64,000 bases of DNA from Escherichia coli (GTDB taxonomy: Bacteria; Pseudomonadota; Gammaproteobacteria; Enterobacterales; Enterobacteriaceae). Location: the NCBI RefSeq assembly GCF_003790525.1, contig NZ_CP033635.1; one strand, given 5' to 3'. Position 1 is the stretch's first letter, and each line of letters starts with the position of its first letter. The position numbers are program-made. This document shows positions 6,001 through 9,000 of this stretch, piece after piece.

Positions 6001-9000
6001 TTGTGAAATCTGGTCGCCAAAGTAACCGCTCATCAGGCTAGGGCCGGAGATGCAAATATGGCCTACCACACGTTCCGCGACAGGTATACCTGCTTCATTG
6101 CGGATTTCAATGCCATGTTCCGGCAACGCTTTACCGCAGTTGACGAAAGTCGATACGGCGCGTGTTTCAGCATCCGGCGCGACGGCTTTGCCCTGATATT
6201 CGAGGATGTCGCGATCCACTTCGTTAACCACAACCCCGGAAGCTTCATCAGAGAAGCTGACAGCCAGCGCATTTTCTGCCAGTCCGTAGCACGGCATGAA
6301 AGTTTTATCGTCAAAGTTGACCTGACGGAAACATTCAGCGAATTGATGGAGTTGTTCTGCGGAGATGGGTTCTGCACCAATACCAGCGACGCGCCAGCAG
6401 GAAAGATCCAGTTCAGCGAGATCTTTTTCATTCACGCGGCGCTGGCACAATTCATAGCCAAACGGCGGCGCAACGGAAACGGTGCCGCGATTTTTACTGA
6501 TCAATTTAAGCCATTGCAGAGGACGCATGGCAAAATCCTGAGTGCGCAAATAATCTACTGAAAGCTGCGTGGCGACGGGGGTCAGGAGAAAGCCGACCAG
6601 TCCCATATCATGGTAGAAAGGCAGCCAGGAGACGCAGCGGTCGCCAGGGCGTAATTTTATGCCATCGTGGCTTATAGCACGTAGATTAGCCATCACTTCG
6701 CGATGGGTGATAATGACGCCACGGGGAAAACGGGTGCTGCCGGAGGTGTACTGGAGGTAGGCGATATCGTTCGGAACTGGACGCTGGAGCGCAACATCGG
6801 CTTCCGGTAATGCCTTAAACCAGGCGTGGCTTAAAACATGTAATTCGGGGTTGTTGTTATGCGTCGCGGCATTGACCAGTGGCAACCACTCATCACCAGT
6901 GATAATGGCTGCGGGCTGGCAACTTGCCAGTAAACCCTGCAGCTTGGCGCTCCAGGAATCCCGCTGACCGACGCCCATGGGAATCGCCAACGGGACGGCG
7001 ACTAAGCCGGCATACTGGCAGGCAAAAAAAGCCTCTACGAACCCGCTACTGGTTTCGGCAATCAGCGCCACGCGATCGCCTTTTTTCAGGTTTAGCGATA
7101 ACAACCGCTTCGCACCAGCTTCGGCACGCGCTTTTAACGTCTGATATTCCAGTTGATCTTCAAGTTGGCAACGTCTGTCATAAAAATTCATTCCAGCGCT
7201 ACTCAGAGCGGCATAGTCCAAAGCATCAACCAGCGTTGGAAAATCGGCATAGCGCATAGGTAGGGAATGCGTAAAGATTTTATTAGACATATACACCACG
7301 AAAAAATTGGATATCAAAAATAAAATGACAATAATGCGGTGGATTATATAGGCATAAAAGATAAATGAGATAGTATTTTCATCAGTGTGAAAATGAACAT
7401 TGATTTAAATAATGAATTTGAGTTTTTTGTTTTTATTGTGAATGATATTTAATTTATGAATATATTAAGAAGGAGCCTTGTCCGGTCGCCTTAAATCGAC
7501 AAAAGGCATTGTGGCGCTTCTGTGTAGTCTCTGACCTTATCGTAATCATTAATAAATACTATTTATTCGTTGTTTGTATTCATTGGGTTGATTATTAAGG
7601 TGCCGTTCGTTGCTGTTGCAACCTGTTTGTCACCGTTAATTATTTGTTACCCACAGAACTATGGAATGCGATCTGCTGATGATTAAAATTGAAAAAGTAA
7701 TTAATAAAAATGACCTTAAGGCATTTATCGCTTTTCCGTCATCACTTTATCCCGACGATCCAAACTGGATACCCCCTTTATTCATTGAACGCAACGAGCA
7801 TTTGTCTGCGAAAAATCCGGGGACGGACCATATCATCTGGCAGGCGTGGGTGGCAAAAAAAGCGGGGCAGATAGTTGGGCGTATTACCGCGCAAATAGAT
7901 ACATTGCACCGCGAGCGTTACGGCAAAGATACCGGTCATTTCGGCATGATTGACGCCATTGATGATCCGCAGGTTTTTGCCGCGTTGTTTGGCGCAGCGG
8001 AAGCGTGGTTGAAGTCACAAGGTGCAAGTAAGATCAGCGGTCCTTTCAGCCTGAATATCAATCAGGAAAGCGGATTACTGATTGAAGGTTTCGATACACC
8101 ACCCTGTGCGATGATGCCACACGGCAAACCGTGGTATGCCGCGCATATTGAACAATTGGGTTATCACAAAGGCATTGATTTACTGGCGTGGTGGATGCAG
8201 CGAACCGATCTCACTTTCTCTCCGGCGCTAAAAAAACTGATGGATCAGGTACGCAAAAAGGTGACCATTCGTTGCATCAATCGTCAGCGGTTTGCTGAAG
8301 AGATGCAGATCCTGCGTGAGATTTTCAACTCTGGCTGGCAGCACAACTGGGGATTTGTGCCGTTTACCGAACATGAATTCGCGACCATGGGCGACCAACT
8401 TAAATATCTGGTGCCGGACGATATGATCTACATCGCTGAGATTGATTCTGCACCCTGCGCGTTTATTGTCGGCTTGCCAAACATCAACGAGGCGATTGCC
8501 GATCTGAACGGATCGCTCTTTCCCTTCGGCTGGGCAAAATTGCTGTGGCGTTTAAAAGTCAGCGGTGTGCGAACTGCGCGAGTACCGCTGATGGGCGTGC
8601 GGGACGAGTATCAGTTCAGCCGCATCGGCCCGGTGATTGCGCTGTTATTGATTGAAGCCTTACGCGATCCGTTTGCCCGCCGGAAGATCGATGCGCTGGA
8701 GATGTCATGGATCCTCGAAACCAATACAGGCATGAATAACATGCTGGAACGCATTGGGGCAGAGCCGTACAAGCGTTACCGATTGTATGAAAAGCAGATT
8801 TAATACCAGATCCTGTTAAGCGCAGGGGCGATCCCTCGCCCCTCGGGGAAAGGGTTAGGGTGAGGGTGAAAACTCGGCTCACATTCCCACCTTGTTCATC
8901 TCCAGCGGCACCGCCGAGCGAATCAAATGGTGGCCTTCCAGCTCGATATCGTGGAGATTCTTTTTCACGGTCCGCACATGATCGCGTGCTGCGCGCTGGG

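What the first reader, a model, noticed from the sequence alone, without database searches (positions are those of the whole stretch)
7318..8803. Apparently full-length yghO sharing a divergent AT-rich promoter region with the lipid operon
From memory, yghO in laboratory K-12 is annotated as a disrupted gene and the region beyond it differs, whereas here a 380-aa ORF is intact and faces the acyl-ACP/alpha-oxoamine synthase operon across a 343-bp AT-rich region. A GNAT-type protein co-regulated with an acyl-ACP pathway could act as an N-acyltransferase on the same lipid.
Basis: partly seen in the sequence, partly recalled or inferred. Interest (0 to 1): 0.3.

Follow-up and report, generated by a model that had tools for sequence, protein, structure and literature searches.

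The report
E. coli yghO, putative ceramide synthase
The intact yghO gene is the E. coli counterpart of the bacterial ceramide synthase and sits next to a sphingolipid-synthesis operon that lab strain K-12 lost to an IS5 deletion; this link is already published, so the finding is correct but not new.

Summary
An intact ORF (7661-8803, 380 aa; the conserved start is ATG 7679, 374 aa) faces a minus-strand operon across a 370-388 bp region of 31-32% GC. That operon encodes a fatty acyl-AMP ligase/acyl-ACP synthetase (aasR), a reductase (cerR), an ACP (acpR) and serine palmitoyltransferase (spt).

IS5 abuts codon 8 of yghO, and 8.4 kb is missing, including the whole spt operon and the lptF/lptG paralogs. 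The intact arrangement is the majority state: about 4,100 of 5,426 complete E. coli genomes have it.

The window protein is identical to BL21(DE3) YghO (ECD_02850). Padilla-Gómez et al. 2022 already named that protein as the orthologue of Caulobacter CC_1154 (Aca/bCerS; 44% identity, E 1e-107).

So the N-acyltransferase interpretation is supported but already known. Co-regulation with the operon and native ceramide production by E. coli remain untested.

The parts
7679..8803 (+). yghO coding sequence, 374 aa from the conserved ATG. The longest ORF starts at 7661 and gives 380 aa. Tandem-GNAT protein, orthologue of the bacterial ceramide synthase (bCerS/Aca).
   Evidence: ORF. Conserved start. 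Fold. Identical accession WP_001300526.1 in CREC-544 and BL21(DE3). Literature orthology.
7291..7678 (.). Divergent intergenic region, 388 bp, 32% GC. By position it must hold the promoters of both yghO and the aasR-cerR-acpR-spt operon.
   Evidence: AT-rich divergent spacers of 263-1079 bp occur in 42 related loci. No promoter-like signal above chance. No Rfam match.
5566..7290 (-). aasR: fatty acyl-AMP ligase / specialised acyl-ACP synthetase, first gene of the operon.
   Evidence: NCBIfam NF006624, 872 bits. Annotation. AasR_Ec activity reported in PMC9386255.
4655..5569 (-). cerR-like NAD-dependent epimerase/dehydratase-family reductase.
   Evidence: Pfam PF01370. Annotation. ECD_02852 proposed as the keto-sphinganine reductase.
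4375..4623 (-). acpR: specialised acyl carrier protein.
   Evidence: Pfam PF00550. AcpR_Ec shown to carry 4'-phosphopantetheine.
3203..4375 (-). spt: serine palmitoyltransferase.
   Evidence: NCBIfam NF047599 equivalog, 600 bits against a cutoff of 500. SPT_Ec activity reported in PMC9386255.
1022..3168 (+). lptF2 (1022-2092) and lptG2 (2089-3168): paralogs of the LPS exporter permeases and candidate sphingolipid exporter.
   Evidence: Pfam PF03739 and TIGR04407/TIGR04408. The Caulobacter LptF2/LptG2 role is reported in bioRxiv 10.64898/2026.04.12.717747.
7700..7701 (.). Position of the K-12 IS5 junction. K-12 sequence matches the window only from 7701 onward, and everything from window position 1 to 7700 is absent in K-12.

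Best explanation
yghO encodes the E. coli orthologue of the bacterial ceramide synthase (bCerS, also called Aca or CerS; Caulobacter CC_1154 = CCNA_01212). It is a soluble, two-domain (tandem GNAT) acyltransferase.

Proposed pathway:
1. The divergently transcribed operon makes the long-chain base. AasR loads a fatty acid onto the dedicated carrier AcpR.
2. Spt condenses acyl-AcpR with serine to give 3-oxo-sphinganine.
3. YghO transfers a second acyl chain (from acyl-CoA, by analogy with Caulobacter) onto the amino group.
4. CerR reduces the 3-keto group, giving dihydroceramide.
5. The adjacent LptF2/LptG2 paralogs probably export the product.

Shown here: gene content, fold, synteny, purifying selection, and the K-12 deletion. 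Taken from the literature: orthology to the characterised Caulobacter enzyme, and the activity of E. coli Spt, AcpR and AasR. Inferred: the catalytic activity of YghO itself, the acyl donor, the order of acylation and reduction, and any co-regulation.

K-12 lost steps 1, 2, 4 and 5 and the native 5' end and promoter of yghO in a single IS5-associated deletion. Its yghO is therefore an orphan remnant.
For: - The operon identity is unambiguous. Spt matches the NCBIfam serine palmitoyltransferase equivalog above cutoff, alongside a FAAL, an ACP and an SDR reductase.
- The profile matches the GNAT CoA-binding region at residues 304-368. Eight of 12 homologues hit PF00583.
- There is no hydrophobic segment (maximum KD19 1.36). 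This is consistent with the peripheral cytoplasmic location of bCerS.
- In 80 loci from other species, 42 have aasR divergently adjacent, 34 have lptF2 just downstream, and 77 have at least one sphingolipid gene. The 3 exceptions are 3-4 kb contigs.
- dN/dS is 0.04-0.06.
- The protein is identical to BL21(DE3) YghO. PMC9386255 lists that protein as 'aca: CC_1154, yghO ECD_02850', with E 1e-107, 44% identity and 98% coverage.
- In that paper, ceramide-like and sphinganine-like products appeared in BL21 when the upstream enzymes were overexpressed. The authors attributed this to intrinsic ECD_02852 and ECD_02850.
Against: - No assay of E. coli YghO exists in the papers I could read.
- I could not retrieve the Caulobacter sequence to repeat the comparison myself.
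- No paper in the library reports native sphingolipids in E. coli.
- Empty-vector BL21 extracts showed no 3-oxo-sphinganine formation, so the cluster may be silent under laboratory conditions.
- yghO survives without the spt operon in K-12-type genomes and in strain SL124.
- E. coli YghO itself has no Pfam or NCBIfam hit.
Confidence: 0.83

Rival explanations
1. The whole cluster, yghO included, is a cryptic or silenced remnant in E. coli. Under this reading it is intact in sequence but never expressed, so YghO has no physiological role.
For: - The intergenic region is AT-rich.
- No consensus promoter signal above chance was found.
- No native sphingolipid has been reported for E. coli in the library.
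- BL21 empty-vector extracts formed no 3-oxo-sphinganine.
- The region has been lost repeatedly through IS elements.
Against: - dN/dS of 0.04-0.06 indicates sustained purifying selection.
- The arrangement is intact in about 75% of 5,426 complete genomes.
- Ceramide-like products in BL21 were attributed to the chromosomal cerR and yghO, which implies some expression.
Confidence: 0.12
2. YghO is a GNAT with a different substrate, for example a protein lysine acetyltransferase or a small-molecule N-acetyltransferase. Under this reading its position next to the spt operon is incidental.
For: - Database names for the family are generic, such as 'N-acetyltransferase'.
- The nearest solved folds acetylate sugars, mycothiol precursors or aminoglycosides.
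- yghO persists without spt in K-12 and SL124.
Against: - Synteny with sphingolipid genes holds across Enterobacterales, Pseudomonas, Azotobacter, Nitrosomonas and Desulfobacterales.
- The K-12 ASKA yghO clone was among the 25 GNATs screened for lysine acetyltransferase activity and was not among those giving acetyl-lysine bands.
- Orthology to CC_1154, which is required for ceramide formation in Caulobacter.
Confidence: 0.04
3. YghO is a DNA-binding transcriptional regulator, as the MG1655 record names it, and it regulates the neighbouring operon.
For: Only the MG1655 product name, and a few database entries that call homologues 'DNA-binding protein'.
Against: - No DNA-binding domain appears in Pfam or NCBIfam.
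Confidence: 0.01

Closest known systems
Caulobacter crescentus bCerS / Aca / CerS (CCNA_01212 = CC_1154), the bacterial ceramide synthase
   Same: - Published full-length orthology of the identical E. coli protein: 44% identity, E 1e-107, 98% coverage.
- Both lie in a sphingolipid locus with spt, acpR, cerR, aasR and lptF2/lptG2.
- Both are soluble proteins without transmembrane segments.
   Different: - In E. coli, yghO is divergently adjacent to aasR. In Caulobacter, bcerS sits about 8 genes from spt, next to lptG2/lptF2.
- The E. coli locus as read here showed no lptC2.
- E. coli YghO has not been assayed, and E. coli is not known to accumulate sphingolipids.
Tandem-GNAT acyltransferases with solved structures: MAB_4324 (7q3a), Clostridium glucosamine N-acetyltransferase (5kf1), mycothiol synthase MshD (1ozp), clavulanate ORF14 (2wpw)
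   Different: Sequence identity is only 13-17%. Those enzymes transfer acetyl groups to soluble amines. YghO's family is inferred to transfer a long acyl chain to a lipid amine.
Eukaryotic ceramide synthases (CerS/Lag1 family)
   Same: The same net reaction: N-acylation of a sphingoid base.
   Different: The eukaryotic enzymes are integral membrane proteins, a different kind of protein from the soluble GNAT-fold YghO. The literature proposes that the bacterial enzyme acts on the 3-keto intermediate before reduction.

Membership tests
Bacterial ceramide synthase (bCerS/Aca, CC_1154 family) | Full-length sequence homology to the genetically and biochemically characterised Caulobacter protein. 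| not testable with these tools
   I could not retrieve the Caulobacter sequence. The best 80 loci of the genome scan contained no Caulobacter, and two cluster look-ups gave no named Caulobacter member. Published BLAST on BL21 ECD_02850 gives E 1e-107, 44% identity and 98% coverage. I showed that the window protein is that same protein, accession WP_001300526.1.
Bacterial ceramide synthase (bCerS/Aca, CC_1154 family) | Encoded within or beside the sphingolipid locus (spt, acpR, aasR, cerR, lptF2/lptG2). | tested here: met
   In the window, yghO is adjacent to aasR-cerR-acpR-spt and lptF2/lptG2. In 77 of 80 related loci at least one partner gene lies within 10 kb. Forty-two loci show the same divergent aasR arrangement.
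Bacterial ceramide synthase (bCerS/Aca, CC_1154 family) | Soluble or peripheral cytoplasmic protein without transmembrane segments. | tested here: met
   Maximum 19-residue Kyte-Doolittle hydropathy is 1.36. The model is a compact globular two-domain fold. bCerS localisation is reported in PMC11087976.
Bacterial ceramide synthase (bCerS/Aca, CC_1154 family) | Catalyses N-acylation of 3-oxo-sphinganine or sphinganine. | not testable with these tools
   This needs an enzyme assay or genetics. The only hint is indirect: ceramide-like spots in BL21 attributed to the chromosomal genes.
GNAT superfamily | GNAT alpha/beta fold. | tested here: met
GNAT superfamily | Sequence match to the acyl-CoA-binding motif A region. 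| tested here: inconclusive
   The family profile matches 2ge3 residues 85-144 at E 0.0055. Eight of 12 homologues hit PF00583, best E 5e-8, but E. coli YghO itself gives no hit at E up to 1.
DNA-binding transcriptional regulator (MG1655 product name) | A recognisable DNA-binding domain. | tested here: not met

The most novel reading that the evidence does not exclude
Most natural E. coli, roughly three quarters of sequenced genomes, are latent sphingolipid producers, with YghO as the ceramide synthase. Under this reading the lipid class has been missed for two reasons: K-12 lost the pathway to an IS5 deletion, and the cluster is expressed only under conditions not yet tried. The genes are known and the idea is implied by published work, but native production and its trigger are not documented in the papers I could search.
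Probability: 0.45. Interest if true: 0.5.

Novelty: already known. Interest (0 to 1): 0.2.

Why it matters
It corrects a poor annotation. The MG1655 record calls YghO a 'putative DNA-binding transcriptional regulator', other records call it simply 'protein YghO', and some homologues are labelled 'dATP pyrophosphohydrolase'.

It is also a reminder that K-12 is atypical at this locus. About 75% of complete E. coli genomes carry a full set of sphingolipid synthesis and export genes under purifying selection.

The open and testable questions are whether, and when, E. coli makes ceramides, and how the divergent AT-rich control region is regulated. The gene-function assignment itself has been in print since 2022.

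Tried and rejected
- **Pfam and NCBIfam on YghO:** no hit.
- **Profile search against PDB sequences:** only weak GNAT matches and no solved bCerS.
- **Locus search with the 85-sequence alignment:** A 12-sequence alignment worked.
- **AlphaFold-database fold search:** not available on the machine.
- **Retrieving the Caulobacter bCerS sequence:** the best 80 loci contained no Caulobacter, and two cluster look-ups of 20 representatives returned no named Caulobacter member. Stankeviciute et al. 2022 was not held, by DOI or by PMC id.
- **Promoter and terminator scan of 7150-8950:** counts at or below those of shuffled sequence.
- **Repeats in the spacer:** only short, weak inverted repeats, and none conserved across genera.
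- **Rfam on 7000-10000:** nothing.
- **Idea that YghR/S/T are ceramide-kinase (CpgB) relatives:** rejected. YghR and YghS give only weak P-loop/thymidylate-kinase-like hits, whereas CpgB is a DAG-kinase-like enzyme with a GGDG motif.
- **Wasted literature search:** the term 'cerR' matched unrelated words.
- **Recent horizontal transfer of the cluster:** not suggested by composition. Coding GC is 50-57%, apart from about 43% around acpR.

Full report
**What is in the sequence**

The window is E. coli chromosome. Over 7318-8803 it is 100% identical to strain CREC-544. The ORF 7661-8803 (+, 380 aa, ATG) is intact. PGAP annotates it as 'protein YghO'.

Upstream, on the minus strand, lie four genes:
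- a fatty acyl-AMP ligase (5566-7290; NCBIfam NF006624, 872 bits);
- an NAD-dependent epimerase/dehydratase-family protein (4655-5569);
- an acyl carrier protein (4375-4623);
- serine palmitoyltransferase (3203-4375; NCBIfam equivalog NF047599, 600 bits against a cutoff of 500).

Beyond them, on the plus strand, are paralogs of the LPS permeases LptF and LptG (1022-3168) and a YtfJ-family protein. Downstream of yghO is glcC, followed by glcDEFGB.

The spacer between the ligase ATG (7290) and yghO is 370 bp to 7661 or 388 bp to 7679, at 31-32% GC. Flanking coding sequence is 50-57% GC.

The start conserved across genera is ATG 7679, which gives 374 aa. Homologues in Serratia, Citrobacter, Pluralibacter, Pantoea and Erwinia are 374 aa and cover 98% of the 380-aa ORF. 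In an alignment of upstream regions from six Enterobacterales, conservation begins exactly at that ATG.

**K-12 comparison**

K-12-type genomes match the query only from window position 7701 onward. Direct comparison shows the right end of IS5 abutting 7701, which is codon 8 of the 374-aa protein. The left end of IS5 abuts yghQ. A stretch of 8,386 bp present in CREC-544 is absent. It covers the yghQ 3' end, a hypothetical gene, ytfJ-like, lptF2, lptG2, spt, acpR, cerR, aasR, the spacer, and the first codons of yghO.

The four bases flanking IS5 differ (TTAG and TTAA). There is therefore no target-site duplication, as expected for an IS-associated deletion rather than a simple insertion.

MG1655 annotates yghO (b2981) as a 390-aa 'putative DNA-binding transcriptional regulator'. 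Its first 24 codons are IS5 sequence. PGAP calls a 378-aa chimera in a K-12-like genome and flags yghQ as truncated.

**Population picture**

Among 5,426 complete E. coli genomes:
- 4,140 carry at least 80% of 7318-8803;
- 4,067 carry at least 80% of the spt operon;
- about 410 have only part of 7318-8803; the two examples listed were K-12-type, matching from 7701 onward;
- about 880 lack yghO and glcC together.

Two further IS-mediated variants turned up. Strain 21AH057 has IS1 at about window position 7353, with yghO and the glc operon gone. Strain SL124 has IS1 removing the spt cluster through pitB but leaving yghO. The intact arrangement is the norm and K-12 is a derived state.

**What YghO is**

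Pfam and NCBIfam give no hit for the E. coli protein. An exhaustive phmmer search found 6,480 cluster representatives at E ≤ 1e-3 and 1,119 at E ≤ 1e-30, nearly all 370-400 aa.

Sequence identity to these is 13-17%. The family profile weakly matches the CoA-binding region of single-domain GNATs at residues 304-368. Eight of 12 homologues hit PF00583. No solved structure of this family exists. No segment is hydrophobic enough for a membrane helix.

**Linkage to the lipid operon**

A scan of one genome per species returned 80 loci with YghO homologues at 47-96% identity. tblastn with the window's proteins gave the following:
- aasR divergently adjacent in 42 loci, with spacers of 263-1079 bp; these range from Enterobacterales through Pseudomonas, Azotobacter, Salinicola and Nitrococcus to Desulfobacterales;
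- lptF2 within 3 kb downstream on the same strand in 34 loci, mostly Nitrosomonas;
- spt within the locus in 41 loci;
- at least one sphingolipid gene in 77 loci.

The three exceptions are contigs of 3-4 kb. The spacers are AT-rich in all Enterobacterales examined (26-42% GC) and carry no conserved ORF. dN/dS for yghO is 0.04-0.06 against a divergent E. coli, Citrobacter youngae and Serratia marcescens. The K-12 allele is identical in amino acid sequence over residues 9-374.

**Comparison with what is known**

BL21(DE3) has the same arrangement. Its YghO carries the same protein accession (WP_001300526.1) as the CREC-544 protein, which is identical to the window's.

Padilla-Gómez et al. 2022 (PMC9386255) report the following:
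- E. coli Spt, AcpR and AasR are active.
- The Figure 9 legend lists 'aca: CC_1154, yghO ECD_02850'.
- Table S2 gives E 1e-107, 44% identity and 98% coverage against CC_1154.

CC_1154 (CCNA_01212, bCerS) is required for ceramide formation in Caulobacter. It is described as a cytoplasmic peripheral membrane acyltransferase that acylates 3-ketodihydrosphingosine before the periplasmic CerR reduces it.

A 2026 preprint shows that the LptF2/LptG2 paralogs of the Caulobacter sphingolipid locus are needed for sphingolipid transport. It also draws the E. coli UTI89 locus alongside.

**What is not established**

- No assay of E. coli YghO was found.
- No report of native E. coli sphingolipids was found.
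- BL21 empty-vector extracts formed no 3-oxo-sphinganine.
- Co-regulation is untested. The consensus promoter scan was not above chance, and nothing conserved across genera was seen in the spacer.
- The K-12 ASKA clone of yghO was among 25 GNATs screened for lysine acetyltransferase activity and was not among the positives. This argues against a role as a protein acetyltransferase, with the caveat that the K-12 allele has a foreign N-terminus.

**Verdict**

Novelty is 'already known'. Interest is low for the finding as stated. The residual open question is whether and when E. coli actually makes ceramides.

Noticed in passing
window 8810-8893: An 84-bp G-rich insert (…GGGAAAGGGTTAGGGTGAGGGTGA…) lies between the yghO stop and the glcC stop. 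In K-12 and BL21 the two genes are only 6 bp apart. The insert changes the glcC 3' end, giving 256 aa instead of 254. Megablast finds it in only 183 of 5,426 complete genomes, always as a single copy at this site.
   Followed up: partly
window 1022-3168 (lptF2, lptG2) and 428-991 (ytfJ-like): A second copy of the LPS exporter permeases LptF and LptG sits in the sphingolipid cluster, beside a YtfJ-family periplasmic protein. A 2026 preprint shows that the Caulobacter equivalents are required for sphingolipid transport and use the housekeeping LptB. PGAP names the E. coli copies plain 'lptF' and 'lptG', which could be mistaken for the essential genes.
   Followed up: partly
window ~7290-7701; L084 (21AH057), L085 (SL124), L002/L003 (K-12): Three independent IS-associated deletions (IS5 in K-12, IS1 in 21AH057, IS1 in SL124) all have an endpoint in or at the edge of the AT-rich yghO-aasR spacer. 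This suggests it is a hot spot for IS insertion and adjacent deletion.
   Followed up: partly
whole locus, E. coli genomes counts: About 880 of 5,426 complete genomes lack yghO and glcC together, and most of these apparently lack the spt operon too. I did not determine which lineages these are or what replaces the region. One example has a pheV-associated integrase island directly after an IS1.
   Followed up: no
window 7480-7560 versus L004 9627-10000: The middle of the yghO-aasR spacer differs strongly between the window and another genome labelled E. coli (L004). The flanking genes are 92-99% identical in protein. L004 yghO also has dS 0.35 against the window, which is unusually high within one species.
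   Followed up: no
family-wide: The YghO/bCerS family has more than 6,000 cluster representatives and a characterised member. Even so, the E. coli protein matches no Pfam or NCBIfam model, and public names for the family range from 'N-acetyltransferase' and 'DNA-binding protein' to 'dATP pyrophosphohydrolase'. This looks like an annotation gap.
   Followed up: partly
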